A stretch of 39,610 nucleotides of DNA from the NCBI GenBank assembly GCA_007127015.1, contig SLAE01000021.1:1-39610 (forward strand), in the 5' to 3' direction. Every line of letters starts with the position of its first letter. Positions within the stretch are counted from its first letter, which is position 1. The notes below the pieces were generated by a model, which made no database searches, had not been told where the DNA came from, and was given only the letters and a program-made list of their open reading frames with translations. The DNA is from Desulfonatronospira sp. (lineage in GTDB: Bacteria > Desulfobacterota > Desulfovibrionia > Desulfovibrionales > Desulfonatronovibrionaceae). A program made the position numbers and the translations under genes. Positions 4,231-18,014 of the stretch are shown here, one piece after another.

Positions 4231-5598
4231 ATGTCTGAAACGCCAAGGCTTTTAATCGTGGATGATGAGGCGGGCCACAGGATGATGGTCAGGGCAGTCC
4301 TGCAGGATCTGGGATATGAAATTTTTGAAGCGGCCAATGGTTTACAGTGCATGGAATTTCTAGAGAAGAATCATGCCGATGTTGTTCTGCTGGACATAAA
4401 GATGCCTGGACTAGACGGCATGCAGGTCCTGGAACGAATAAAAAGAGGCCGTAAAGATGTTCAGGTGGTTATGCTGACCGCCTTCGGCAGTGTGGGCTCT
4501 GCTGTCGAAGCCATGAAAAAAGGAGCGTTTGACTATCTGATCAAGCCTGCGGATATCGATGAATTGAAGGCGGTTATTCAGCAGGCTTATGAATACCGGC
4601 GACTGGTTAAATCTGAGCGCCCAATTAAAGGGTTAAGCCCTTTTAAGGATGATGCCGGGATCATCGGTGAAAGCTCAGCCATGGGGCAGCTTCTGGACAT
4701 GGTTGATCAGGTGGGTCGAAGCGAGGCCAACGTGCTTATCCTGGGAGAATCAGGCACGGGCAAAGAGCTTGTCGCTCAGGCCCTGCACAGAGTAAGTCCC
4801 AGGAGAAAAAATCCGCTTATCAGCATCAACAGTTCGGCCTTGCCGGCTGATCTGCTGGAGAGCGAACTGTTCGGCTATCAAAAAGGTGCATTTACAGGGG
4901 CATTTAAAGACAAGCCCGGAAAGTTCCAGCTGGCGGAAAAAGGCACCCTTTTTCTGGATGAAATCGCAGATTTTCCCTTGAAATTACAGCCCAAGCTGCT
5001 CAGGGCGCTGCAGGAAAAAAAGATACAGCCCCTGGGAGACACCAGAGAAATAATAGTGGATGTACGTTTTCTGGCCGCAACCAACAAGGATCTGCTGCAT
5101 GAAGTAAGAGCTGAAAACTTCAGGCAGGATCTCTATTATAGACTGAATGTCGTGGAGATCAGGGTGCCTGCCTTGCGGGAGAGAATGGAGGATCTACCCC
5201 TGCTGGTTAATCATTTCATAAGAGTGCTCGGAAAAAAGAACCGTAAGCAGGTCAAGGGGATCAGCCGCAACTTTCTGGATGCCCTTTATGGTTATTCGTG
5301 GCCGGGAAACATCCGTGAACTTGAAAATGTAATCGAGCGGGCCATAATTTTGTCCAGAAGCGATGTGCTTGACTCCGCAGTTCTTCCGGAAATTATTGTC
5401 ACAGAATCTGGCCGAAAGTCCCAGGCACACTTAATACAGTCTTCACAAGAAGCTTTGGAAGATGCAGAGAAAAAGGTTTTGAAGGAGGCTTTGAACACGC
5501 ATCAGGGGCACAGGGAAAATACAGCCAAAGCTTTGGGAATCAGTAGGCGTACTCTACAGTATAAACTTAAGAAGCATGGTCTGACCAGAAGATCATAA
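4231..5598 (+). CDS. Sigma-54-dependent NtrC/ZraR-type response regulator (REC-AAA+-Fis HTH)
   Basis: IVDDE and LLDIKMP receiver; GESGTGKE Walker A, ESELFG, GAFTGA, LFLDEI, WPGNIREL; C-terminal TAKALGISRRTLQYKL. Confidence 0.95.
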   Translation: MSETPRLLIVDDEAGHRMMVRAVLQDLGYEIFEAANGLQCMEFLEKNHADVVLLDIKMPGLDGMQVLERIKRGRKDVQVVMLTAFGSVGSAVEAMKKGAFDYLIKPADIDELKAVIQQAYEYRRLVKSERPIKGLSPFKDDAGIIGESSAMGQLLDMVDQVGRSEANVLILGESGTGKELVAQALHRVSPRRKNPLISINSSALPADLLESELFGYQKGAFTGAFKDKPGKFQLAEKGTLFLDEIADFPLKLQPKLLRALQEKKIQPLGDTREIIVDVRFLAATNKDLLHEVRAENFRQDLYYRLNVVEIRVPALRERMEDLPLLVNHFIRVLGKKNRKQVKGISRNFLDALYGYSWPGNIRELENVIERAIILSRSDVLDSAVLPEIIVTESGRKSQAHLIQSSQEALEDAEKKVLKEALNTHQGHRENTAKALGISRRTLQYKLKKHGLTRRS

Positions 5599-5617
5599 GC
5601 ATAGTTAAAACCGGCGG

Positions 5618-7516
5618 TTACCAGGAAAAAGATTTTTTAAGCCAGGAGGTCAGTTCTTCAGCAGACTGAGGTTTTCCGATCCAGTATCCCTGGACCATAT
5701 CACAGCCAATATTTTTAAGTAATTCGATACTTGCCTGATTGCCCACTCCTTCAGCGATCACCTGCATATCCAGATTGTGAGCAAGATCAACCATTGATTT
5801 GACCATTCTTTGATTCTTGATGTTGTGTTCCAGATCAAGAACCAGGCCAGGATCTATCTTCAGGGTCTTGACCGGAAGTTCGGTCAGGCAGGGGATTGAC
5901 GAGTTGCCGCCGAAATTATCCAGGCAAACGGGGATTTTCATGTCCTGCATAATGTTCATAAAACTTTGTACCTGATGCGTTGCTCCAGTCAGCATGCTTT
6001 CAGCTATTTCCAGCTCCAAACAAGAATTTTCCAGTCCAAGTTCTTCCAGGATACTCGATACTCTGTCAGGAAATCCAACGTCCAGGATGTCCTGATTTGT
6101 CAGATTAATGCTGCCCGCCAGGTTTATCCCCATCATCCGCCATTCCCTGATCTGAGCCAAAGTCTTTTGCAGGACAGCTGTATTTATCTCCAGGGCCAGA
6201 CCTGCCCGCTCAGCCAGAGGGATGAATTCTTCTGGAGGAATAACTCCCTTGGTGGGATGAAGCCAGCGGATCAGGGCCTCAACATTGCAGATTTTTCCGT
6301 CAGATACATGGATTGCGGGTTGAAAATAAACGTTCAATCTGTCTTCAGCCAATGCTTTCTTAAGATCAGAGATCAGGCTTAACCGGTTCAAACCCGGCGA
6401 ATCGAATCTGCGGTCATACAGAGCATAACCTGTATTCATGCGTCTGGCAGCATACATGGCCATATCCGCTCTGCTAAGCAGCTGCCCCAGATTTTTTCCA
6501 TGATCGGGAAATAAAGATATGCCGATGCTTATTCCCAGAAAAATGCTCTGTTCTTGCATTTTGAAGGGCCTGGACATGATTTCCAGAATTTTCCCGGCTT
6601 TTTCTCGAGCACGTTCTTCTGCATCCGGGCCGCTGAGCACCACGGCAAATTCATCTCCGCCCAAACGTCCCAAGCATTCAGCGCCTTCAATAATATCCTG
6701 CAGACGATAACCTGCTTTGACCAGCAGATCGTCTCCAGCCTGATGTCCGAAATTTTCATTGACTTCTTTGAACTGATCCAGGTCAATAAGGATAAAAGCA
6801 GCCTTTATTTCATAAACAGTGTCCAGACAGGAGCGTATTTCACTTTCCAGTCTTTTGATTATGGTATCGCGATTGGGCAGCCGGGTAAGCCTGTCATAGC
6901 CGGCCTTAACCTCAGATGACCTGGCCTTATTATTGGTTTTCTTAAGCTGAGTGTTTGTTTCCCTGAAGAGCGTGTACAGTTCAAAATTTTCCAGGGTACT
7001 GGCGGTGCCGGATAAAATGAGACTCAGAAGAGCCCAGGACACATCCGGAATTGTAGAGATATCTCCTTTTAAAAGTCCGATGAACATGCCCCGGATGCGG
7101 GAGCTGGAGCTAAGAACTTGAAGGACTACACGCATATCCTGATTAGACGAAGCCAGAAGCAAGGCTTTCTTCTCCATTATCGCGGATGAGAAGAAACCCA
7201 GATCGATAAGAAGTTCGGATTCCAGACGCAAAACGCGTTCCTGTTTTTCTGGTGTAAGATAAGCCGGATAAAAATCATTATCCTGTTCATCCACCAGAAA
7301 CATGCCCATGGCATGAAAGTCGATAATCCTGGAAATGCCTGAGCAGGTTTTTTCCAGAATAAGTGAACTGGTCTGCAGCTTATTCATGCTTGGCTGAATA
7401 TCTATCAAAGCTGCAGCCACTTTCAGGCCTTCCAGGGCAAAGCTGTTCACTTCCTCCTGGTGCTTCAGCCTGTGCTGAAGCTCAATCATGTATTCCGAGT
7501 TTTTTTTGTCGAACAT
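5618..7516 (-). CDS. GGDEF-EAL c-di-GMP enzyme with N-terminal GAF-like region; EAL partly degenerate
   Basis: DRLTRLPNR, DLDQFKEVN, RLGGDEF; VEALIRW, AEGV, QGYWIGKP; loop 6 reads DNFGGNSS. Confidence 0.9.
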   Translation of the reverse strand: MFDKKNSEYMIELQHRLKHQEEVNSFALEGLKVAAALIDIQPSMNKLQTSSLILEKTCSGISRIIDFHAMGMFLVDEQDNDFYPAYLTPEKQERVLRLESELLIDLGFFSSAIMEKKALLLASSNQDMRVVLQVLSSSSRIRGMFIGLLKGDISTIPDVSWALLSLILSGTASTLENFELYTLFRETNTQLKKTNNKARSSEVKAGYDRLTRLPNRDTIIKRLESEIRSCLDTVYEIKAAFILIDLDQFKEVNENFGHQAGDDLLVKAGYRLQDIIEGAECLGRLGGDEFAVVLSGPDAEERAREKAGKILEIMSRPFKMQEQSIFLGISIGISLFPDHGKNLGQLLSRADMAMYAARRMNTGYALYDRRFDSPGLNRLSLISDLKKALAEDRLNVYFQPAIHVSDGKICNVEALIRWLHPTKGVIPPEEFIPLAERAGLALEINTAVLQKTLAQIREWRMMGINLAGSINLTNQDILDVGFPDRVSSILEELGLENSCLELEIAESMLTGATHQVQSFMNIMQDMKIPVCLDNFGGNSSIPCLTELPVKTLKIDPGLVLDLEHNIKNQRMVKSMVDLAHNLDMQVIAEGVGNQASIELLKNIGCDMVQGYWIGKPQSAEELTSWLKKSFSW

Positions 7517-7519
7517 AAG

Positions 7520-8779
7520 CTAAATCACAGCATTTTCTTTAATTTCACTTAAAAAAGTTTTTGAAAAGTTATCCACCCGGGACTGCATTATTTTTGCTGT
7601 CTGGTATAAAATGTAAGGATCAAGCTTCAGTCTGGACCATGAATCAAGATCCGGTTCCGGAATAAAAAAATTTCCGCTGCAGCCTATTTCGCAGCCTATG
7701 CTTAAAGTATCAGCCATATTCACCAGAGTTGCTTCCAGTCGATAATCTGACCGGTATGGATGATGATGATGTCTGATAGTCTGCACTACCTTGTCTGGAT
7801 GTAGCCATTTTCCGGCCAGCGTAGCTCCTAGCTCAGCATGATCCTGATGAAAGAACAACTTTTCCGCATGATGCAGTTTAGAGCCTTCTTTTACAGAAGC
7901 ATACATAGATTCCAGAATTTTAATAGGAAAATGCGTCAGCATGAGCAGTCTGCCTATATCGTGAAGCAGTCCGCAGACGAATATGTTTTCCGGATCAGAC
8001 AGACCGCAGTGCTGAGCCAGAATTTTGGCTCCTGCGGCACAGGCCAGGCTGTGTTTCCAGAATTCCGGCATATCAATTATTTCCGGGGGGATATTTTTGA
8101 ACCGGGAAAAAACAGTCACAGCCTCGGCCAGCATGCTGAGCTGCCTCGTTCCCATAACCCTCACCGCCCTGCTGATGGTATCAATCCGGAATGATGAGCC
8201 AAAAGCAGGACTGTTGACCAGTTTAAGGAGCATGGCGCTCAGCCCGGGATCACTGCTGATCAACTCTGTGAGATGTCTGGAGGATGCCTTCAGATCTTTG
8301 GAAGCGACTGAGAATTGACCAAAGACTTGAGGAACACAAGGAAGCCTTACTTCATCGGAAATTATGCTGGAAGGATCCAGTGGATAGGCAGAACTTTTTT
8401 CCGGGGGCGCAGAAGAATCCAGAACTTTAAGGCGATCAGAAAAAGAAATATTCGTAGAATAATTTCTGCAGTGACGCTGGGCAAATATATTTACCAGCTT
8501 AAGGCTCGTATCGCTGCGGGGATCATGGTCCGGGAAGCGCTGCAAGACCATGGAAACAGCTTTTCCCCATTCTTTGGAAGAGAAATGCTGATCAATATTT
8601 ACTGCATTAAAATCCGGACCACAAACTTCTAATTCACTTATTCCCCAAATCTTTAGAATGCGCAGGTGTTTTTCTGATAAGTGCAGCCCTTTGCTTAGAA
8701 GAAAACGCCCGTTGCAGTCGTGTACGTCCTGAGCAAGGATCATTCCGGGTTTTATGTTTTCTAGAAATATTTTGCCCAT
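7520..8779 (-). CDS. HDOD domain protein
   Basis: DPGLSAMLLKLVNS, FWKHSLACA, GLLHDIG, HAELGATLAGKW; N-terminal KPGMILAQDV segment seen in HD-type signalling proteins. Confidence 0.9.
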   Translation of the reverse strand: MGKIFLENIKPGMILAQDVHDCNGRFLLSKGLHLSEKHLRILKIWGISELEVCGPDFNAVNIDQHFSSKEWGKAVSMVLQRFPDHDPRSDTSLKLVNIFAQRHCRNYSTNISFSDRLKVLDSSAPPEKSSAYPLDPSSIISDEVRLPCVPQVFGQFSVASKDLKASSRHLTELISSDPGLSAMLLKLVNSPAFGSSFRIDTISRAVRVMGTRQLSMLAEAVTVFSRFKNIPPEIIDMPEFWKHSLACAAGAKILAQHCGLSDPENIFVCGLLHDIGRLLMLTHFPIKILESMYASVKEGSKLHHAEKLFFHQDHAELGATLAGKWLHPDKVVQTIRHHHHPYRSDYRLEATLVNMADTLSIGCEIGCSGNFFIPEPDLDSWSRLKLDPYILYQTAKIMQSRVDNFSKTFLSEIKENAVI

Positions 8780-8914
8780 GTGCGGTGAAGTGCTGCGGAT
8801 GAGGTTAACAGATTTTTAGCAGTATAGGCTTACTAGACCTTAAAGAACATAGATGCACTGAGTCAAGAAAATTTAAATTAAAAAAAACTTTTGCCGCTCT
8901 GAGACCAAACAAGA

Positions 8915-10405
8915 TCATTGAAAATAACGATCAATAAAATAACATGCTCCCTGAGGCAGAAAATCCGGTATATCATAGTATCTTTGTTTAATATCTGTCA
9001 GAATCTCTTCCCGGTAGTTCAAAAAATTAAAATTTCTTCCAATGCCTACTGCAAATTCAGCTCCTTTAACCCTGATAAAGTGAGTTTCAACACTGGAAAA
9101 AAAGGGTTCGAGCATTCCAGTATCCAGAGCAGGTCTGCGGGACAAGAACAAAATGTCCATACCGTCCAGTTGACTGAAGTCGGTCAGGCGGTCGTCTTCG
9201 CGGCCGTATTTGGATCCTGTCCCCAGTACACCCCAGTAGTGCCTGGAATAAAAAGACAGCACCGCAGACCTGGAGTAACTGGAAGTAGTGTAATGATCAG
9301 CATCCAAACCGTTTACAGCTTCAGCCACTTCAGCGGGTCTGAGGTAAAATACTGCGTCCTGGTGCAGGCTTGGACTGTCTCTGATGACATCCAGGGGCAA
9401 TGCAAGCAGGATGAGAGCAATGAGTGCGTGCACCAGTGCATAGCCGAGCATGAATTTCCGGACAAAAACCAGTGAGTTCCCGGGAATATGAGCATAAACC
9501 AGATACAGGAAAGGGATGAAGCCCAGCACCCAGTGCAGGCCAATTGAATAAAACCATGAAACCACAAAAAAAACACACAGGGGGACCAGAGCTGCCAGGA
9601 AGAAAAGATCAAAGCCCTTTGTCCTGATAATGGAGGTGATGTTTTTCCAATTTCTGAAGAATTGTACAGCCAGAACCGGAGATATGATCCAGACGAGCAC
9701 AGCCAGGAGCAAAAGAGGCTGAACAAGGCTTATCTGTGGATCCTGGGTCCGGTTGATGAAGTTGAACATTATATTCACCCAGCAATGGGTGTAATTCCAG
9801 TAAAGATTGAGCAGAATAAGCGGCATGCAGCCCAAAAGAACAAGTGCCAGCCGGTCAAGCCTGTTAAGTCCGAAGCGCAAGAAATGGATCAGATAGGCAA
9901 GAAGTAAAAGGGCAGCGAAATATTTGGACAAAAAGGCCAGACCCAAAAGGATGCCTGATAGCAGATACAAGCCCGAGCTGTCTCTTTGTTCAGCCCGGTA
10001 AAGGATCAGGACTGATAAGAACATGGCCACGATAAGCGGAGTATCCGTGCTGACCATGACACCTAGAAGATAAACCGGAGTAAGCAGAAAAATTGTGGAA
10101 ACCAGAAGGGCTCTGGTTCTGTCCTGATCGCTTAAGGTATAGTAAATACCCCAGACCAGAACATATCCACCAAGGATGGAAGGCAGGCGTACGAATACTT
10201 CGCTTTCATGGATTTTCAGGCTCAGGTGGATGAGCCAGCCAACCAGCGGAGGATGATCATAATATCCAAGAGCCGGATTTTGGGCCCAGAGTACGAAGTA
10301 GGCCTCATCTCCTGTCAAAGGAAGAGCATGTGCCAGATAAAGCTTTACCGGCAGAGATAAGGCCAGGGCAAAATAGAAATAATATCTGGCTTGAGTGTAA
10401 TTCAT
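8915..10405 (-). CDS. GT-C fold membrane glycosyltransferase (ArnT/PMT-like), putative arabinofuranosyltransferase
   Basis: GDEAYF and GYYDHPPL in first loop, TDTPL, LSKY; about 11-12 hydrophobic segments plus soluble C-terminal domain; sugar specificity inferred only from neighbours. Confidence 0.8.
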   Translation of the reverse strand: MNYTQARYYFYFALALSLPVKLYLAHALPLTGDEAYFVLWAQNPALGYYDHPPLVGWLIHLSLKIHESEVFVRLPSILGGYVLVWGIYYTLSDQDRTRALLVSTIFLLTPVYLLGVMVSTDTPLIVAMFLSVLILYRAEQRDSSGLYLLSGILLGLAFLSKYFAALLLLAYLIHFLRFGLNRLDRLALVLLGCMPLILLNLYWNYTHCWVNIMFNFINRTQDPQISLVQPLLLLAVLVWIISPVLAVQFFRNWKNITSIIRTKGFDLFFLAALVPLCVFFVVSWFYSIGLHWVLGFIPFLYLVYAHIPGNSLVFVRKFMLGYALVHALIALILLALPLDVIRDSPSLHQDAVFYLRPAEVAEAVNGLDADHYTTSSYSRSAVLSFYSRHYWGVLGTGSKYGREDDRLTDFSQLDGMDILFLSRRPALDTGMLEPFFSSVETHFIRVKGAEFAVGIGRNFNFLNYREEILTDIKQRYYDIPDFLPQGACYFIDRYFQ

Positions 10406-10411
10406 CAGCTG

Positions 10412-11146
10412 TCAAATGGACATACGTTTAAATATCCGCTCCGGAATATGTTTGATAAAGGCCATGATCCAGCGCCACATCCATCTGGTATACACAATAT
10501 CCCTGTTCCTGAGTATTGCCTTATATATATTCCCGGCCGCTTCCTCTGGGGTTGCACTCAGTCTGGAAGGTAAATCAAGGTCTCTGGTCATCTTGGTTCT
10601 GACAAAACCAGGTTTGACTGTGATCACCCGAACCCCTGAACTGAACAGTCTGTTCCTGAGTCCGCTTAAAAAGGCGCTCATTCCGGCCTTGGCGCTGCCA
10701 TACACGTAGTTTGAGGCGCGACCCCTGTCACCTGCAACCGAGCTGATCCCGACAATAAAACCTTCACCTGCTTTTTCCATGCGGTTGGCGGCCAGGGACA
10801 AGATGCTTACGCAACCTGTAAAATTGGTATTTATTATGCGCTGCCATTCCTGAGGATCCCGCCTTGCCCGGTTTTCATCCCCTAGAAGACCGAAAGCGAC
10901 CACCACTCCGTAAGGCTGCGGGTTTAGATGCTCGTAAAAACCGGCATGAGAATCAAAATCGAGGGCATCAAAATAAAAAACCTCAGCCTGTATTTCAAAG
11001 CGGATCTCAAGGTCCTTCGCGTCTTTGGACAGTTCATCGACATTTCGGCCGGCCAGGAACAAATCGTATCCTCCTCCGGCCAGTTCAGCGCAAAGAGCCC
11101 TGGCCATATCCGACCCGGCTCCAAGAATCAGTATGTTTTTGCGCAT
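10412..11146 (-). CDS. SDR oxidoreductase, DprE2-like 2-keto-pentofuranose reductase
   Basis: LGAGSDMA Rossmann variant, SSVAGDRGRASNYVYGSAKAG (YxxxK), VKPGFVRT; overlaps the dprE1-like gene. Confidence 0.85.
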   Translation of the reverse strand: MRKNILILGAGSDMARALCAELAGGGYDLFLAGRNVDELSKDAKDLEIRFEIQAEVFYFDALDFDSHAGFYEHLNPQPYGVVVAFGLLGDENRARRDPQEWQRIINTNFTGCVSILSLAANRMEKAGEGFIVGISSVAGDRGRASNYVYGSAKAGMSAFLSGLRNRLFSSGVRVITVKPGFVRTKMTRDLDLPSRLSATPEEAAGNIYKAILRNRDIVYTRWMWRWIMAFIKHIPERIFKRMSI

Positions 11147-12453
11147 AAACCAAGCCTTTCTGATTGCAGCGAAGCCATTTTATTCTCCGGATCGTGCTTA
11201 TACTTCAGCTCAAGAAATCTGCCGCTTTCCGGGTAACCCTTAAGAAAATCATGTTTGCTCATTCGGGCATCTTTGGCCAGATATATTCTACCGCCCAGAT
11301 TGTGAACCAGACGGTCCAGCGCGCTGAGCATAGCTGAGAGACCGGGCTTTATGGGAAAGTCAAGAGCAAGAGTATAGCCCTGGAATGGAAATGAAAGCGG
11401 TCCTGCCTGAGGTCCCAGGAGTTTCAGCACAGCCAGATAGGGGAGAAGGCGGGATGCCTGCACGTGGGCTTGAATTTTTTCCAGTCCAGGTCTGGACTGT
11501 TCTTTTGGCAGGACAAACTGGTACTGCAAAAAACCCTTACGCCCATAAAAGCGGTTCCAGTTGTGCACTTTGTCCAGAGGATAAAAAAAGTCATCAAGGT
11601 CAGGGAAAGAGCACCCAGTTCCTGATTTTCCGCGCAGATGATATAAATGGTTAAAAGCCCTGACGCCTTGTTTATTCATGATCCATCCAGGCATAAAAAA
11701 GGGAATATTGATTCCGGATTTTTTTTGCCTGCTCAATTCTTTGCAGGTTACTTCCCCGGACAGGCAATGCTCCCCGAGCATGAAGAGACCGCGGCCGAAA
11801 TTTCTGCCCCGGCCAAGAAAGTCTATCCACGCCACCGAATAAGTGCTTTGCCTGTGAACCTCAAAGAGTTCCATTAAATGTTCAAGATTTTCAGCCGGAA
11901 TGGTTATTTGACGGATATGTGCGCTCTGGATGGGCATAAGCCTGATTCTGGCGCTTAAAATAAGTCCCAGCAGGCCCATTCCTCCGCAAACAGCATGGAA
12001 AAGCTCCGCATTTTTTTCCCTGGAACAGTCAACTATCTCTCCCCCCGGAGTCAGCAGGAGCAGGGAAAGTACATGGCGGCCGAATGTTCCGTGAAGGTGA
12101 TGGTTCTTGCCATGTACGTCGCTGGCAATGGCTCCGCCCAGAGTGACATATCTGGTTCCAGGAGTAACAGGCAAAAAAAGTCCGCGGGGAATGATTAACT
12201 TTAAAATCTGGTCCAGGCTTATGCCTGCCTCACACTCCAGTATTCCCTGTTTCTGATCCAGGGCGATAAATCTTTTGAAACAAGGTGTGGAAATAATATT
12301 TTTCTCAAGCGAACAGTCACCATAGGAGCGGCCCAGACCTCTTGGGATGCACCGGGAAAGACTATCCAGAAGCTTGCAGGCTTCGTTTTCTGTTCTAAAT
12401 TCCCAGAGTCTGGCATTAATGCGGGGATAGTTGTTCCAATTGGCAACGAGCAA
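11128..12453 (-). CDS. FAD-dependent oxidoreductase, DprE1-like polyprenylphosphoryl-ribose 2'-oxidase
   Basis: RGLGRSYGD, PVTPGT..VTLGGAIASDVHGKNHH, LQYQF, GYTLALDFP, GGRIYLAKD, SERLGL; TTG start, no in-frame ATG before the upstream stop. Confidence 0.88.
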   Translation of the reverse strand: MLVANWNNYPRINARLWEFRTENEACKLLDSLSRCIPRGLGRSYGDCSLEKNIISTPCFKRFIALDQKQGILECEAGISLDQILKLIIPRGLFLPVTPGTRYVTLGGAIASDVHGKNHHLHGTFGRHVLSLLLLTPGGEIVDCSREKNAELFHAVCGGMGLLGLILSARIRLMPIQSAHIRQITIPAENLEHLMELFEVHRQSTYSVAWIDFLGRGRNFGRGLFMLGEHCLSGEVTCKELSRQKKSGINIPFFMPGWIMNKQGVRAFNHLYHLRGKSGTGCSFPDLDDFFYPLDKVHNWNRFYGRKGFLQYQFVLPKEQSRPGLEKIQAHVQASRLLPYLAVLKLLGPQAGPLSFPFQGYTLALDFPIKPGLSAMLSALDRLVHNLGGRIYLAKDARMSKHDFLKGYPESGRFLELKYKHDPENKMASLQSERLGLCAKTY

Positions 12454-12641
12454 TTTAAATGAATCTCCATGTAGCAGGTGAATCGAGATTTTAAATAAGA
12501 AATATAACTGTATTAAAGAGCATGTTTTTCAAGTTCAAATTTCTTCTATTACAGATTTTGAATTCAGTACCAGGCTGGTAATAATCATTAGTTTTTATGG
12601 ATCTCTACTGATTCTGCTGCAGGAGCTTTCCAGCTTAACTT

Positions 12642-13034
12642 TCACCTCCTGAACACCCATTTCTTATCAAGGCGGTATTTCAAGGTATAGCCGACGATCA
12701 ATCCAAGAGCTCCGCCAACGTATTTTGCCTGTTCAAAATTAAAAAAAAGATCAAACCCGATTTCCGTACCCCAGAAAATCATGGTGGTCATTACCCCCAT
12801 GCACGAATAGACAGTAAATTTACGGGTGTCTTCGTATATGTTCCTGGACACATAGCTGAAAATGTATTTCTTGTCCAAGATGTACTTGATCACCAGCCCG
12901 GTAAAAGTCCCCAGAATCAATGCCATGTAAAGCTCAAAAGGGCCCTTATACAGACTGAAACTGAAAAACTGTGTTCCCAGGTTGACGCATATGGCGATCA
13001 GGGCAAACAGGGCATATAAAAATGGCAGCTTCAT
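12642..13034 (-). CDS. GtrA-family small membrane protein (lipid-linked sugar translocation/accessory)
   Basis: 130 aa, about 4 TM segments, duplicated KY(I/R)LDKK(Y/W)(I/V)F motif; ATGA overlap with the ubiA-family gene. Confidence 0.85.
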   Translation of the reverse strand: MKLPFLYALFALIAICVNLGTQFFSFSLYKGPFELYMALILGTFTGLVIKYILDKKYIFSYVSRNIYEDTRKFTVYSCMGVMTTMIFWGTEIGFDLFFNFEQAKYVGGALGLIVGYTLKYRLDKKWVFRR

Positions 13035-13912
13035 GTTCTGGTCAGGACAAGAAAAAATAGAAGCCAGCAGGTAACAGTTACCTGTAAAAACCTGTCCTTG
13101 AGGATTTCCTGCGTGGGATTGCCCCCACGCTGATCAACAAATACGATCTGAAGGTAGCGCATGATACCCAGAAGAACGAATACCGCGCTCAGGTACAAGT
13201 ATCCGGAACCAAATCTCTGCTGCACTTCAGGGGAGATGGTGTATAAAATATAGCAGACAAGCGTAACCGCGGCCATAATGATCATGGACACGTTCACGAA
13301 ATCAAGAGTATAACCGTCAATACATTTGCGGACATCTCTGCCTTCTCCGGCCAGGAGCACATCGTCCCGCCGCTTGGCCAGGGCCAGAAAGAGAGCCAGA
13401 AGAAAGGTCATGAGCACGATCCACATTGAGGCTTCAACAGTGGCGGCCAGAGCGCCCGCGAATATTCTCAGGACAAAGCCGATGCCGATTATGAAAATAT
13501 CAAGAACTGCCACATGTTTCAGTTTCAAAGTATAAATTGTGTTCAATATTGAATAAATGACCAGGATGAAAAAAATTCTTAAGTCCAGCGCAAGTCCAAG
13601 ACCAAGACCCGAAACAAGAAGTACACTCATATAGACATAGGCTTGTTTCGGAGTGATAAGCCCCTGAGCCAGAGGCCGGTATTTTTTTTCCGGATGTTTT
13701 TTGTCCTCGTTGACGTCGTTGATGTCATTAAAGATATAGACGCTGCTGGCTACCAGGCAAAAAGAAATAAAGGCCAGAGTTACCTGAAACAGCAGTTCAG
13801 GTTCAAAAAACCTGAAGGAGAAAAACAAAGGTGCGAAAACAAAGAGGTTTTTTATGTACTGATGCGGGCGTAACAGCCTTATATGTGCCTTGCTGAGCAT
13901 GTAGTCATCCAC
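13031..13912 (-). CDS. UbiA-family polyprenyl-phosphate phosphoribosyltransferase (Rv3806c/NoeC-like)
   Basis: RPHQYIKNLFVF, SSVYIFNDINDVNEDKKHPEKKYRPLA, LKH..VLDI, LALAKRR; start may be ATG at 13900 rather than GTG at 13912. Confidence 0.9.
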   Translation of the reverse strand: MDDYMLSKAHIRLLRPHQYIKNLFVFAPLFFSFRFFEPELLFQVTLAFISFCLVASSVYIFNDINDVNEDKKHPEKKYRPLAQGLITPKQAYVYMSVLLVSGLGLGLALDLRIFFILVIYSILNTIYTLKLKHVAVLDIFIIGIGFVLRIFAGALAATVEASMWIVLMTFLLALFLALAKRRDDVLLAGEGRDVRKCIDGYTLDFVNVSMIIMAAVTLVCYILYTISPEVQQRFGSGYLYLSAVFVLLGIMRYLQIVFVDQRGGNPTQEILKDRFLQVTVTCWLLFFLVLTRT

Positions 13913-13974
13913 ATTATTTTAAGAAGATAGGTTAAATGTCTACAGGTTCTTTTGCAGCAAGACAGTCAAGATGT

Positions 13975-14676
13975 CTAGTCTTTACACAGGCTTTGGGCGG
14001 GTATGGTCTGTAACTTCTGGTCCCAGTAGATTTCAAGAACTTGTGGGACTATTTTTGTTCCCGGCCAAGGGTTAACTGATTGATCGGTATGCAGCAGATA
14101 AAGGCAGATAAAAGCCAGAACTTCAGCGTCAGTTTCAAATTCAATAGCTTTCTGGATTTGCGGATAAGCTCCTTTTGCGGTAGCAGGATCGGCTTGAGCC
14201 AGCCGGGCCGTACCCCAGAATGCCCCCCGCCGCAGGGGCAGATATTCCAGGAAATTGTCGCTGCCTCCTTCTCTTGAAGCCAGATAAGAAAAAAGAATGC
14301 GGCTGTATTCCAGAGCCAGCCCGGGATGACGGGCCATGATTTCACCCATGCATTCAGGTGAGCCCCATCCGATTCCACCGGATTCGTCGTTAAGAGTCCA
14401 CATGAACCGGCGCATGACTATCCGGGCCTGCTCCATATCCTCTAAAGCCAGGGCGCTGACCGTAAAGCCTGCTACTGTGACTGCATGCCACCTGACCCGT
14501 TTGTTAGGATTTAAAAGGGCGCTGTAAAGTGCTCCCAGAAGCTTGTGCGGCGGGTGTTTCAGCAGTTGGTGCAAAACCGGATTAAGATCATCGCGGTCAA
14601 GCAGAACCTGGACCTCTTCCTTCAGGGCCATTAACCCGGAAGAGTGAGCAGTAGATGGATCAGACATGCTGTTCAA
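13975..14676 (-). CDS. HEAT-repeat-like conserved protein (DVU0298-like family)
   Basis: MRRFMWTLNDESGGIGWGSPECMGEI motif recalled from this family; 18 nt downstream of roo. Confidence 0.7.
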   Translation of the reverse strand: MNSMSDPSTAHSSGLMALKEEVQVLLDRDDLNPVLHQLLKHPPHKLLGALYSALLNPNKRVRWHAVTVAGFTVSALALEDMEQARIVMRRFMWTLNDESGGIGWGSPECMGEIMARHPGLALEYSRILFSYLASREGGSDNFLEYLPLRRGAFWGTARLAQADPATAKGAYPQIQKAIEFETDAEVLAFICLYLLHTDQSVNPWPGTKIVPQVLEIYWDQKLQTIPAQSLCKD

Positions 14677-14694
14677 AAAATCGCTCCCAAAAAT

Positions 14695-15897
14695 TTATGA
14701 TGCTACCTTGGCCTTAATGGCCTGAGCCAGTGCACGGCCCAGCTCCTTGCAGACGGCCAGCTGTTCATGTCCTGGCACATATTGAAGGCGAAGCGGTTTT
14801 TGCGGAAGATCAAAGCCGGCATCTTCAAGGATCCTGGACATGGCAGAGGGTGCTTCTCCACTCCAGCCGTAGGAACCTAGGGCGGCTCCAATTCTGTTTT
14901 TGGGCTTCAGACCTTTCATGTACGTCAAGAAATCAGCCATAAGTGGCATCATGCTGTTATTGTGGGTAGGCGATCCGCAGACCAAAGCCGCCGCGTCCGA
15001 AAATTCGCCCATGACATCACTGTGATGGTGGGATTTTAATGACATGACCCGAACCTCTATGCCTTCGCTTATCAGCGCGTCTGCAACAGCCCTGATCATC
15101 TTCTCCGTGCTGCTCCACATGGTGTCATAAACCAGGACAGCTTTAGGTCTTAGTTTTTGTGAAGCAAACTCTTTATAAGCGGCAAGAATTTTATCCGGAT
15201 GAGAACGCCAGATCATTCCGTGATCCGGAGCGATCATATCTAATTCCAGCCCTGCTTCCTGGACGCGGTCCAGAAGTTTTAATACCAGAGGAGAATAGGG
15301 CAGTATGATGTTGGTGAAATAATGTCTGGCTTCCCTGATCAGGGAGTCCAGATCGTGTTGATCGTCAAATATATTGCTGTTGGCAATGTTTTGGCCGAAC
15401 GCATCGCTGGAAATGAGCAGTTTGTCGTTCGGAATATATGAAAACATGCTGTCCGGCCAATGCAGCATTCTTGTTTCAATAAAATTAACCGTTCTTTTTC
15501 CGAGAGATATTTCCCGGCCATCTTTGACAGCTTCCAGGGGCCAATCGGAAGGATGAAAATGAGCTTTAAGCGATTTTTCACCCATGACCGAACAAAATAA
15601 TTTTTCCGGATTTGCTTTATCCATAATGAAGGGCAAAGCCCCGGAATGATCCATTTCCAAATGGTTGGCTACGATATAATCAATATCGCCAATATCAATC
15701 AGACTCTGAATCTGATGAAAAAGTTCCCATTTGAATTTTTCCGGAACTGTATCAAAGAGGGTAACCTTATTGTCCAGAACAAGGTAAGCGTTATAGGTTG
15801 TGCCCTGATGAGCCAGCGCGTACCCGTGAAAGTTCTTCAGGTTCCAGTCTATCACGCCCACCCAGTATATATCTTTTTTGATTTCGATTGCCGGCAT
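14695..15897 (-). CDS. roo: Flavodiiron protein (FprA type), rubredoxin:oxygen oxidoreductase
   Basis: GTTYNAY, NHLEMDH, HWPDSM, SDAFGQ, PDHG diiron ligands; flavodoxin domain DTMWSST, GSPT, GSYGWSGE; follows rubredoxin. Confidence 0.93.
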   Translation of the reverse strand: MPAIEIKKDIYWVGVIDWNLKNFHGYALAHQGTTYNAYLVLDNKVTLFDTVPEKFKWELFHQIQSLIDIGDIDYIVANHLEMDHSGALPFIMDKANPEKLFCSVMGEKSLKAHFHPSDWPLEAVKDGREISLGKRTVNFIETRMLHWPDSMFSYIPNDKLLISSDAFGQNIANSNIFDDQHDLDSLIREARHYFTNIILPYSPLVLKLLDRVQEAGLELDMIAPDHGMIWRSHPDKILAAYKEFASQKLRPKAVLVYDTMWSSTEKMIRAVADALISEGIEVRVMSLKSHHHSDVMGEFSDAAALVCGSPTHNNSMMPLMADFLTYMKGLKPKNRIGAALGSYGWSGEAPSAMSRILEDAGFDLPQKPLRLQYVPGHEQLAVCKELGRALAQAIKAKVAS

Positions 15898-15948
15898 GCG
15901 TTTCTCCTAAAAAGAGGATAGAATGGTGAATGAATTAAGGGTTTTTTC

Positions 15949-15980
15949 TGCACCCGCATCCGGATTAAGACGCAGGTGCA
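15949..15980 (-). other. Intercistronic stem-loop between rubredoxin and roo
   Basis: Minus strand TGCACCTGCGTC-TTAATCCG-GATGCGGGTGCA: 12-bp stem with two G-U pairs, no U-tract. Confidence 0.6.
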
Positions 15981-16033
15981 TTCTTAAACATCAATAGTTG
16001 CGGCTGTTGTCCTGAAACAGAAGTAAGCAAGCC

Positions 16034-16195
16034 TTATCCTTCAGGGGTGAAATCTTCCTTACCTGCACCGCAAACAGGGCAGACCCAATCCTCAGGGACA
16101 TCCTCGAATTTTGTTCCTGCAGACACTCCATTTTCCGGATCACCCTCAGCCGGATCGTACATATACCCGCAAACTGTACATATCCATTTGTTCAT
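16034..16195 (-). CDS. rub: Rubredoxin (53 aa; not in ORF track)
   Basis: Manual translation [53 protein letters not shown]; CxxC...CPxC; AAGGAG RBS. Confidence 0.96.
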
Positions 16196-16289
16196 AAACA
16201 GCTCCTTTGTGTACTCTTAAAGTATGTAAAAATGCCACTAAATCCTTCAAGTATCAGAAATTTGTTCCCACGCAACAGGAATGCCTTTT

Positions 16290-16475
16290 TCAAGACTCAG
16301 AAAGAACCCGGAAACTTTTGCGGCTCGCGCCGCAAACAGGACATCTCCATTCCTCCGGCAAGTCTTCAAAAAGTGTGCCTTTGGGAATTTTGCCCTTGCG
16401 GTCTCCCCTGTCCGGGTCATAAATGTAACCGCAATTGACCATTTGACATTGCCACATCTGTTCGGGGCTGGACAT
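16290..16475 (-). CDS. rdl: Rubredoxin-like protein (Cx4C type, 61 aa)
   Basis: [14 protein letters not shown]...WRCPVCG; start moved from 16517 to ATG 16475 because of GGAG RBS. Confidence 0.88.
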
Positions 16476-16616
16476 ATGATCTCCAGTGCTCAACAGAGCC
16501 TGATTGTGGAAAAACAATCTGGTTATAGTTTTTTAATTGAAGAATTGGGCAGCCTTATTCACCTCATTATCTTATATTTCAAAAGCTCAATTATCGGGCA
16601 GCAGCCTTTATCTCTT

Positions 16617-17192
16617 CTACCAGTTTTCGCACAGAATTTCGAAGTGAGCTCGGGGATGCACGCATGATGGACATATCTCAAGCGCTTCTGCAGCCTTGTG
16701 GGTATAACCGCAATTCTGACACTTCCAGACTACTTCCTGCGTTTTTTTAAAAACTGAGCCTTTTTCAATATTTGCTATAAAGGCCCGGTATCTTTTTTCA
16801 TGAAGCTGTTCGGAAACGGCAATAGATTCCATGGCTTCGGCTACCTCATTAAACCCCTCTTCTCTGGCTACTCTTGCAAACTCCGGATACATTGTCTGAT
16901 GTTCGTAGTTTTCTCCAGCTGCTGCTTCGTTAAGATTTTCCAGTGTAGTGCCGATTTTGCCGGCGGGAAATGAGAACTGTATTTCGGCATCACCACCTTC
17001 GAGAAACTTGAAGAGCCTTTTGGCGTGCTCTTTCTCGTGGCTTGCTGTTTCTTCGAATATATTGGCTATTTGCACAAAACCATCTTTTTTGGCTTGTTTG
17101 GCAAAAAAAGTGTAGCGATTGCGGGCCTGAGATTCTCCAGCAAAGGCGGTTAAAATATTTTTTTCTGTCCGGGTGCCTTTAATGGATTTCAT
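16617..17192 (-). CDS. rbr: Rubrerythrin
   Basis: AFAGESQARNRY, EKEH, GENYE, EQLH diiron motifs; C-terminal CQNC...CPSC rubredoxin-like site. Confidence 0.96.
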   Translation of the reverse strand: MKSIKGTRTEKNILTAFAGESQARNRYTFFAKQAKKDGFVQIANIFEETASHEKEHAKRLFKFLEGGDAEIQFSFPAGKIGTTLENLNEAAAGENYEHQTMYPEFARVAREEGFNEVAEAMESIAVSEQLHEKRYRAFIANIEKGSVFKKTQEVVWKCQNCGYTHKAAEALEICPSCVHPRAHFEILCENW

Positions 17193-17318
17193 TTAGACTG
17201 ACCTCCTGAATTAGCAGTTGAATATATCATAAATATTAACAAAATGATGATTGTAAAGAATGATGTTGAAGATTTATAATGATCAAAAATTTATCAAGTG
17301 GAGTATTTTGGGGGCTGG

Positions 17319-17699
17319 TCATTTGTCCGAAGCACACCCGGGGCAGATACCCAGTAATTCCAGACGTAATCCGGTAATTTTGAAATCTGTCTTAATGCTG
17401 GTCAAATCGTCAAGATCCAGATTTAATTCATCATGCACATCGCGTACACACCCGCAATCAGTGCACATTATATGCAGGTGAGGATCAATATTGCCGTCAA
17501 ATCGCTTCTGTTCTCCACAGGTTTCGATTTTTCTTATCATTCCCTGCCTGGAGAGGATGTCCAGATTACGGTAAACCGTACCCAGGCTGATATTGGGCAT
17601 TTGACTGCGGACCTCATCGTAGACCTCAACCGCCGTGGGGTGACTGGTGGTCTTTTTCAGTCTGTCTAAGATGATTTTTCTTTGTTTGGTTAATCTCAT
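17319..17699 (-). CDS. perR: Fur-family regulator, PerR
   Basis: RLTKQR, HPTA, ISLGTVYRNL, HLHIMCTDC, CPGC; first gene of the rbr-rdl cluster as in Desulfovibrio. Confidence 0.85.
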   Translation of the reverse strand: MRLTKQRKIILDRLKKTTSHPTAVEVYDEVRSQMPNISLGTVYRNLDILSRQGMIRKIETCGEQKRFDGNIDPHLHIMCTDCGCVRDVHDELNLDLDDLTSIKTDFKITGLRLELLGICPGCASDK

Positions 17700-17712
17700 G
17701 ATTTACCTCTTA

Positions 17713-17750
17713 TTATAGGAACAAGTATTGTTACTGAAGTTACTTGTCAA
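17713..17750 (-). promoter_or_regulatory. Putative perR promoter -35 with overlapping inverted repeat (candidate operator)
   Basis: TTGACA at 17750-17745 (minus); ACAAGTA(17721-27)-N13-TACTTGT(17741-47); no clean -10 at 17 nt. Confidence 0.45.
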
Positions 17751-18014
17751 GGAAATGATATAAACTTTTTTATAAATTTCATCCATGTAGCCTTAAAAAT
17801 CCCAGCCGCCCCGACCAGGCAGAGCGCTATAAAACCCTTCTTAATTATGTCAGGCTGAGGTTGTTCCAGACCAAGAAGCACTAAACCATTTTTTTTAAGT
17901 CTTAGAGAGAGTCAGAAAAAAAAGGATTTAAAAAAGCGTTACAATCATCATGCGGTTTGGAAGACGTGCGGGCTGGATACTGTTCATGCCGGAAATTTTA
18001 AGAAAAGAATTTTT

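What the first reader, a model, noticed from the sequence alone, without database searches (positions are those of the whole stretch)
8915..13912. Mycobacterial-style lipid-linked arabinofuranose pathway (ubiA-gtrA-dprE1-dprE2) with a dedicated GT-C transferase in an anaerobic Gram-negative
Seen: five co-oriented genes; ubiA/gtrA and dprE1/dprE2 overlap, and only 6 nt separate dprE2 from the GT-C gene. Known: Rv3806c (UbiA), DprE1, DprE2 and the GtrA protein Rv3789 convert PRPP into decaprenyl-P-D-arabinofuranose in mycobacteria; related genes arabinosylate type IV pilin in some Pseudomonas aeruginosa strains and Nod factors in Azorhizobium. Inference: this organism makes undecaprenyl-P-Araf, presents it in the periplasm and adds Araf to an envelope component. 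I know of no characterised case in sulfate reducers, though similar clusters probably occur uncharacterised in other Gram-negatives. The electron acceptor that re-oxidises the DprE1 flavin anaerobically (menaquinone?) is also open.
Basis: partly seen in the sequence, partly recalled or inferred. Interest (0 to 1): 0.8.

Follow-up and report, generated by a model that had tools for sequence, protein, structure and literature searches.

The report
Lipid-carried arabinose envelope glycosylation cluster
A soda-lake sulfate-reducing bacterium carries five neighbouring genes predicted to build the sugar arabinofuranose on a membrane lipid and likely attach it to its lipopolysaccharide; this kind of pathway is already known from Pseudomonas and Citrobacter, and only the transferase family and its target are uncharacterised.

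Summary
The five genes are real, intact and under purifying selection. ubiA, dprE1 and dprE2 have the mycobacterial enzymes as clear best matches, not lactone oxidases. The first four genes repeat, in content and order, Pseudomonas aeruginosa PsPA7_6246-6249. Donor synthase + flippase + GT-C with optional epimerases was published as a widespread class in 2024. So the pathway type is known, and it is not rare in sulfate reducers: dprE1 orthologues occur in 21 of 251 genomes of the order and 19 of 301 of the phylum. The scan noted similar modules on other DNA. What is open is the GT-C. It folds most like ArnT and belongs to an uncharacterised subfamily. That subfamily is tied to the phosphoribosyltransferase more than to DprE1/E2: 27 of 43 carriers in one betaproteobacterial sample lack dprE1, and 24 of those 27 keep the synthase. 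In several lineages it sits among lpt/lpx genes. Best reading: undecaprenyl-P-Araf is made (about 0.8) and transferred to lipid A or inner core (about 0.45 overall). No 5'-phosphatase gene was found. Menaquinone is a documented DprE1 acceptor and mqnC is present, so anaerobiosis is no puzzle.

The parts
13031..13912 (-). UbiA-family polyprenyl-phosphate phosphoribosyltransferase (PPPRS; Rv3806c / PsPA7_6246 type), no fused HAD domain
   Evidence: NCBIfam NF008977 253 bits, over its cut-off of 234; PDB 8j8j E 1.9e-40, next family 1e-6; N62, D63, D66, D70 and R181 present, matching the motifs tested in PMC11127046
12642..13034 (-). GtrA-family small membrane protein; predicted flippase or scaffold
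   Evidence: Pfam PF04138; NCBIfam NF037976 161 bits, cut-off 50
12454..12641 (-). 188-nt AT-rich spacer, variable in length among relatives; may hold an internal promoter (untested)
   Evidence: the promoter scan found 13 sites against 10.2 +/- 3.4 by chance, so it gives no support
11128..12453 (-). DprE1-like FAD-dependent 2'-oxidase; Ala at the Cys387 position
   Evidence: NF053785 380 bits, E 2e-113, below the curated cut-off of 500; PDB DprE1 E 1e-77 over residues 35-436; Y44, G99, H114, K116, Q310, Q312, K344, D365, Y391, K394 align with Y60, G117, H132, K134, Q334, Q336, K367, D389, Y415, K418
10412..11146 (-). DprE2-like short-chain reductase
   Evidence: NF005489 (PRK07102) 327 bits, cut-off 267; NF053786 DprE2 205 bits, below its cut-off of 250; DprE2 is the only PDB hit at E<=1e-20 (1.1e-34); S136 and Y149-x3-K153 present
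8915..10405 (-). GT-C glycosyltransferase (PMT_2, ArnT-like fold) of an uncharacterised subfamily linked to PPPRS genes
   Evidence: Pfam PF13231; model pLDDT 95; best fold match ArnT 5f15, Z 27.4, rmsd 3.6, 413 aligned; D33, E34, D50, H51, D121, K161, H291 invariant in 120 homologues

Best explanation
The cluster is predicted to make undecaprenyl-phospho-D-arabinofuranose from PRPP and likely uses its ArnT-like GT-C enzyme to add single arabinofuranose units to lipopolysaccharide (lipid A or inner core) on the periplasmic side of the inner membrane. Steps, all inferred from homology and gene context, none shown: (1) PPPRS transfers ribose-5-P from PRPP to undecaprenyl-P; (2) an unidentified phosphatase encoded elsewhere removes the 5'-phosphate; (3) DprE1 oxidises and DprE2 reduces C2, giving Und-P-Araf, with menaquinone the likely flavin re-oxidant; (4) GtrA flips the donor or scaffolds the enzymes; (5) the GT-C transfers Araf. 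Layered odds: donor is Und-P-Araf about 0.85; this GT-C uses it about 0.77 overall; acceptor is lipid A or inner core about 0.45 overall; lipid A phosphate specifically about 0.3.
For: Donor: best family and structure-sequence hits with wide margins and conserved active-site residues. Same four genes in the same order as PsPA7_6246-6249, which were needed for pilin arabinosylation in E. coli and worked without the phosphatase gene in the constructs described. PMC11127046 found DprE1/E2 homologues with Araf-containing glycans. Coupling: the GT-C is the only PMT_2 hit in G000, G002, G004 and G006; 52 of 80 loci of its family have dprE1 and 44 have PPPRS within 8 kb; in 15 of 20 loci from dprE1-less genomes PPPRS lies 21-452 nt away. 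Acceptor: best fold match is the lipid A transferase ArnT, including the periplasmic domain. A 36%-identical full-length homologue lies 34-36 nt from lpxL in an lptF/G-lpxK-lpxL-GTC-pagL-waaA-GT9 run in L095 and L098. lptF/G genes lie within 8 kb in 10 of 100 loci from five separate tree branches, in tandem in three of them. GT9 genes lie within 8 kb in 8 of 80. The genome has lpxK and mqnC.
Against: No LPS gene lies beside the cluster in this window or genus. An ArnT-like fold does not fix the acceptor: ArnT was also the closest template for the pilin transferase TfpW and for the O-antigen transferase ORF12, and Pmt4 scores Z 25.8 over 325 residues. 90 of 100 loci have no lptF/G nearby, and L095/L098 are one branch. 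15 of 43 GT-C-positive, dprE1-negative genomes showed no PPPRS, so some family members may use other donors. DprE1 and DprE2 score below NCBIfam's curated cut-offs, and F290, L346, T361, A363 differ from Y314, F369, N385, C387. No phosphatase candidate: the linked HAD type was found in 0 of 5 genomes of the genus and PAP2 in 1 of 5.
Confidence: 0.45

Rival explanations
1. Same Und-P-Araf donor, but the GT-C adds Araf side chains to O-antigen or exopolysaccharide after polymerisation, as Citrobacter ORF12 does with Ribf or Xylf.
For: This is the proven prototype for Gram-negatives. ArnT was its closest structural precedent too.
Against: No O-antigen or EPS gene near the cluster here. The family keeps about 40% identity over full length across phyla whose O-antigens should differ. 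The model shows no separate carbohydrate-binding domain (496 aa, against about 650 aa for ORF12).
Confidence: 0.2
2. The GT-C is a protein arabinosyltransferase (pilin, lipoprotein or S-layer), like TfpW.
For: The donor cassette equals the P. aeruginosa pilin-glycosylation one. Pmt-type protein mannosyltransferases are the next fold matches (Z 23-26).
Against: TfpW is 646 aa with a TPR domain and is encoded beside pilA. This protein is 496 aa with no TPR hit, and no pilin appeared among the recurring neighbours annotated.
Confidence: 0.12
3. The lipid-linked product is not D-Araf: the oxidase/reductase pair has drifted, or ribose is transferred unchanged, or the 5'-phosphate is kept.
For: Sub-cut-off scores and four substitutions around the DprE1 pocket. 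No 5'-phosphatase gene found. GT-C enzymes of this class can accept more than one pentose, and most carriers in one sample lack dprE1.
Against: Ten pocket residues are conserved. Both epimerase genes are intact and under purifying selection. No Gram-negative genome passed the cut-off in any survey, so the cut-off seems set for actinobacteria.
Confidence: 0.13
4. The GT-C is a bystander that uses another undecaprenyl-P sugar, and the Araf donor serves a transferase elsewhere.
For: Other Desulfovibrionales pair the same donor genes with different membrane proteins. Some GT-C carriers show no PPPRS.
Against: Tight and repeated linkage to PPPRS and dprE1/E2 in distant lineages; no second PMT_2 protein in four of five genomes of the genus.
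Confidence: 0.1

Closest known systems
Pseudomonas aeruginosa Pa5196/PA7 D-Araf pathway, PsPA7_6245-6251 with TfpW (bioRxiv 10.1101/2020.04.19.049825, passages read)
   Same: PPPRS, GtrA-like, DprE1, DprE2 in the same order (6246-6249); Gram-negative host; a GT-C does the transfer.
   Different: There the transferase TfpW (646 aa, TPR domain) is unlinked and modifies pilin, and a phosphatase gene (6245) is in the cluster. Here a 496-aa ArnT-like GT-C is adjacent and no phosphatase gene is.
Three-component pentofuranose side-chain systems, Citrobacter youngae O1/O2 ORF12-15, GT136 (PMC11127046; main text parts 1-6 of 8 and supplement parts 3-4 of 10 read)
   Same: PPPRS + small flippase + GT-C, with auxiliary epimerases setting the pentose; DprE1/E2 predicted for Araf.
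   Different: The prototype has a HAD-fused PPPRS, an EmrE/ArnE-like flippase, a GT136 transferase with a CBM, lies in an O-antigen locus and adds Ribf or Xylf. Here: unfused PPPRS, GtrA, a PMT_2-type GT-C, no glycan locus nearby.
Mycobacterial decaprenyl-P-arabinose pathway (Rv3806c, Rv3807c, DprE1, DprE2, Rv3789; Emb/Aft transferases)
   Same: Donor chemistry and homologous enzymes.
   Different: No Rv3807c-like PAP2 in the cluster. The transferase is structurally further from AftA/AftB/AftD/Emb (Z 13-16) than from ArnT (Z 27). Carrier presumably C55. Cys387 is Ala.
ArnT (GT83) lipid A aminoarabinose transferase, Cupriavidus metallidurans 5ezm/5f15
   Same: Best fold match over both domains; pentose-type donor on undecaprenyl-P.
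   Different: 14-16% identity; no sequence-level PDB hit; the donor here would be neutral D-Araf from PRPP, not L-Ara4N from UDP-glucuronate.

Membership tests
Three-component pentofuranose glycosylation system (Kelly 2024) | Polyprenyl-phosphate phosphoribosyltransferase with NDxxDxxxD and R/E motifs | tested here: met
   the E369 position is Asp here
Three-component pentofuranose glycosylation system (Kelly 2024) | Small flippase gene (MATE-like or SMR/GtrA) in the locus | tested here: met
   GtrA
Three-component pentofuranose glycosylation system (Kelly 2024) | GT-C-fold transferase in the locus | tested here: met
Three-component pentofuranose glycosylation system (Kelly 2024) | 5'-phosphatase (fused HAD or separate enzyme) | tested here: inconclusive
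   None in the cluster; linked HAD type 0 of 5, PAP2 1 of 5; other HADs, BacA and PgpA occur in the genus; G000 is 67% complete
Three-component pentofuranose glycosylation system (Kelly 2024) | A pentofuranose is found on a cell-surface glycan and depends on the genes | not testable with these tools
   needs chemistry and mutants
DprE1 (NCBIfam NF053785 equivalog) | Score above the curated cut-off of 500 | tested here: not met
   380 bits; none of the Gram-negative genomes surveyed passed, only the Corynebacterium control
DprE1 (NCBIfam NF053785 equivalog) | Best match over full length and conserved active-site residues | tested here: met
   roles of individual residues other than Cys387 are recalled
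DprE2 (NCBIfam NF053786 equivalog) | Score above the curated cut-off of 250 | tested here: not met
   205 bits; passes the related PRK07102 model instead
DprE2 (NCBIfam NF053786 equivalog) | SDR catalytic S and YxxxK, best structural-sequence match DprE2, adjacent to dprE1 | tested here: met
   only the FAD domain matches, 56-63 bits against cut-offs of 292-397
GT136 (Citrobacter ORF12) | Sequence similarity to ORF12 and a C-terminal CBM | tested here: inconclusive
   No ORF12 sequence could be fetched. By eye the garbled printed alignment shows motifs unlike this family's invariant columns, and the model has no separate beta-sandwich domain
ArnT / GT83 lipid A transferases | ArnT-type fold with TM domain and periplasmic domain, acidic residues after TM1 | tested here: met
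ArnT / GT83 lipid A transferases | Lipid A is the acceptor | not testable with these tools
   gene context only
TfpW pilin arabinosyltransferase | About 646 aa, C-terminal TPR domain, beside pilA | tested here: not met

The most novel reading that the evidence does not exclude
This GT-C founds an undescribed, widespread family of ArnT-like pentofuranosyltransferases that cap lipid A phosphates with a neutral PRPP-derived sugar: arabinofuranose where dprE1/E2 are present, ribofuranose where only the synthase is. It would be a new lipid A modification route in environmental sulfur-, iron- and sulfate-metabolising bacteria, and could supply the missing genes for the D-arabinofuranosyl lipid A of Rhodocyclus tenuis (a structure I recall and could not confirm here).
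Probability: 0.3. Interest if true: 0.62.

Novelty: new member of a known kind. Interest (0 to 1): 0.33.

Why it matters
It would matter more if the acceptor is lipid A or inner core. That would define a new charge-masking LPS modification built from PRPP, give a function to a family of over a thousand unannotated proteins, and predict the sugar (Araf or Ribf) from gene content. The compact five-gene set is also a handy non-pathogen source of arabinofuranosylation enzymes, and it offers a test of quinone-dependent DprE1 turnover without oxygen.

Tried and rejected
Lactone-oxidase or generic SDR identity: rejected. Sequence searches of the PDB with the GT-C or its profile: nothing significant. 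GT-C in plasmids: no match. Protein atlas: the window protein is not held; homologue P0006 returned only PMT_2 clusters. Recent transfer of the GT-C from a named donor: not shown; the six genus proteins form one long branch with weak placement, Thioalkalivibrio proteins were not in the tree and no clade test was run. In a FastTree of 80 DprE1 rows the window falls in a 19-row group made only of the order's genomes and Desulfobacterales; the sample is biased and unrooted. Link to Rhodocyclus tenuis: five paper searches and one id look-up did not find the lipid A structure, and no protein named R. tenuis was among the best 120 of 3019 hits; untested. Two more papers asked for by recalled id were not held. 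Expression: contigs of one RNA run cover all 30 bins of 5000-17800, flanks included, so DNA carry-over is not excluded and neither transcription nor co-transcription is shown; the apparent 7973-16277 joint rests on about 20 matching letters each side and was set aside. Promoter and terminator scans were at chance level. Pilin family PF00114 in 0 of 5 genomes is uninformative, as it rang in only 1 of 14 controls. No complex prediction was run: the DprE1-DprE2 pair has solved structures.
Full report
Observation. A 188-nt spacer of 31% GC splits gtrA from dprE1. GC content of the genes (43-50%) is close to the genome's 49%. Each gene is single-copy in the 67%-complete assembly. The closest named proteins and loci are from Desulfonatronospira, so I take the host to be of that soda-lake sulfate-reducing genus; the flanking genes fit. 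The five-gene order is complete in 5 of 7 other genomes of the genus, truncated by a contig end in G001 and not found in G003 (97% complete). All five genes differ from G005 mostly at third codon positions.

Identity of the donor genes. UbiA passes the NCBIfam decaprenyl-phosphate phosphoribosyltransferase model and hits Rv3806c at E 2e-40, with the next prenyltransferase at 1e-6; the NDxxDxxxD loop and the Arg tested in Citrobacter ORF15 are present. The flavoprotein matches DprE1 over its length (E 2e-113 by model, 1e-77 by PDB sequence), other oxidases only in the FAD domain. Ten pocket residues are conserved; Y314, F369, N385 and C387 are replaced (read from the alignment with positions). 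Cys387 is the residue that covalent nitro inhibitors attack (PMC11841060, passages). The SDR's only strong PDB hit is DprE2. Both fall below NCBIfam's DprE1/DprE2 cut-offs, but so did every Gram-negative hit in three surveys.

What is known. PMC11127046 (main text parts 1-6 of 8, supplement parts 3-4 of 10) defines PPPRS + flippase + GT-C systems, shows that an added epimerase sets the pentose, shows that the GT-C accepts two pentoses, and calls the strategy widespread, with DprE1/E2 homologues in Araf cases. 'Desulfo' does not occur in its supplement. The TfpW preprint (passages; its supplements were not seen) gives PsPA7_6246-6249 as PPPRS, GtrA-like, DprE1, DprE2, the order seen here; these four were required in E. 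coli, a phosphatase mutant still glycosylated pilin, and DprE1 was cytoplasmic. Two papers state that DprE1's flavin is re-oxidised by O2 or menaquinone (passages); a third review had no such passage. G000 has mqnC over cut-off. A search for Desulfovibrio + arabinofuranose + undecaprenyl found 0 papers, and searches listed no title on a sulfate reducer; the library lacks most subscription journals. The Azorhizobium Nod-factor case is recalled only.

Distribution. dprE1 orthologues (E<=1e-40) occur in 21 of 251 genomes of the order, in 6 of 8 families, in 19 of 301 of the phylum, in 36 of 401 genomes of a betaproteobacterial order (the group is inferred from names) and on 63 plasmids. Within the window's order, full-length matches to the GT-C profile were found only in 6 of 251 genomes, all of this genus; other members pair the donor genes with other membrane proteins, often with a HAD phosphatase. 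The cassette is thus modular.

The transferase. The model is confident (pLDDT 95) and closest to ArnT (Z 27.4, rmsd 3.6, 413 aligned), then Pmt4 (Z 25.8, 325 aligned); mycobacterial arabinosyltransferases score Z 13-16. 1107 relatives were found among 7998 scored candidates, and 3019 from a betaproteobacterial query. Of 80 loci fetched (three are genus duplicates; many are cut by contig ends), 52 have dprE1, 46 dprE2, 44 PPPRS, 37 a HAD and 35 an LPG_synthase_TM gene within 8 kb; 12 of the other 28 genomes have dprE1 elsewhere. That set is biased towards sequences near the window's. In the even sample of 401 genomes, 43 carry the family (E<1e-100; five weaker hits left out), only 16 of them have dprE1, against 20 of the other 358 (kin are not independent). 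Of the 27 without dprE1, 24 have PPPRS, and in 15 of 20 fetched regions it is the next or nearly next gene. The family therefore looks like pentofuranosyltransferases tied to PPPRS, with Araf where dprE1/E2 are added. Against this, 12 of the 16 dprE1-less genomes from the first set showed no PPPRS.

The acceptor. Nothing in the window names it. Across the family, lptF/G lies within 8 kb in 10 of 100 loci on five branches: directly upstream in L266/L268/L274, downstream of dprE2 in L089/L093, in the lipid A run of L095/L098, and more loosely in L081/L112 and L111. In L095/L098 a 36%-identical full-length homologue lies between lpxK-lpxL and pagL-waaA-GT9; those genomes have PPPRS elsewhere but no dprE1. 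Six further loci have a GT9 gene 1-3 kb upstream. This, with the ArnT fold and lpxK in the genome, makes lipid A or inner core the most likely acceptor. It is not strong: ArnT was also the nearest template for TfpW and ORF12, which act on protein and O-antigen. I recall that Rhodocyclus tenuis lipid A carries D-arabinofuranose on a phosphate; I could not confirm it or test that species, though the family occurs in Rhodocyclaceae.

The gap in the pathway. No 5'-phosphatase is in the cluster. The HAD type linked elsewhere was found in 0 of 5 genomes of the genus and PAP2 in 1 of 5; other HADs, BacA (3 of 5) and PgpA (4 of 5) exist. A housekeeping enzyme probably fills in, as in the Pseudomonas reconstitution.

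Verdict. Real, correctly annotated, and a new member of a known kind. Earlier notes of this scan describe like modules on other DNA; none matched this sequence. Interest 0.33; the lipid A pentofuranosylation reading has probability about 0.3 and would deserve about 0.6.

Noticed in passing
window 13975-17699: A DVU0298-family gene and a flavodiiron protein gene lie co-oriented just upstream of ubiA in all five complete clusters of the genus; rubrerythrin and Fur/PerR genes follow in the window. The cluster may share control with oxidative-stress genes.
   Followed up: partly
window 5618-8779: HDOD and GGDEF-EAL genes follow the GT-C on the same strand here and in G004, G005, G006, but not in G002 or G007.
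   Followed up: partly
L255-L274: In dprE1-less genomes the GT-C gene is directly next to PPPRS in 15 of 20 loci, with no HAD phosphatase of the linked type within 8 kb in any; a two-gene ribofuranosylation module is predicted. Several have a second PMT_2 protein directly upstream.
   Followed up: partly
L036-L110 (Gallionellaceae, Sulfuricellaceae and others): The usual order is GT-C, dprE1, dprE2, HAD, PPPRS, LPG_synthase_TM protein; the last seems to stand in for GtrA as flippase (35 of 80 loci). Extra membrane proteins without Pfam hits are often inserted.
   Followed up: partly
L026, L028, L032, L176-L180: Other genomes of the order pair the same donor genes with different multi-pass membrane proteins; the two scanned had no Pfam family. 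Candidate further GT-C families.
   Followed up: no
L279 / L121 (G005:C45): G005 has a second PMT_2 gene next to a PAP2 phosphatase gene, not found in the other four genomes of the genus searched.
   Followed up: no
phage collection hit H31 (MT837543.1, 4880-5755): A 6.6-kb unannotated record filed as a phage carries a PPPRS 47% identical to the window's; it may be a bacterial fragment.
   Followed up: no
L182 (G043): A dprE1 homologue lies with another flavoprotein and an extended SDR; no DprE2-sized ORF was listed beside it.
   Followed up: no
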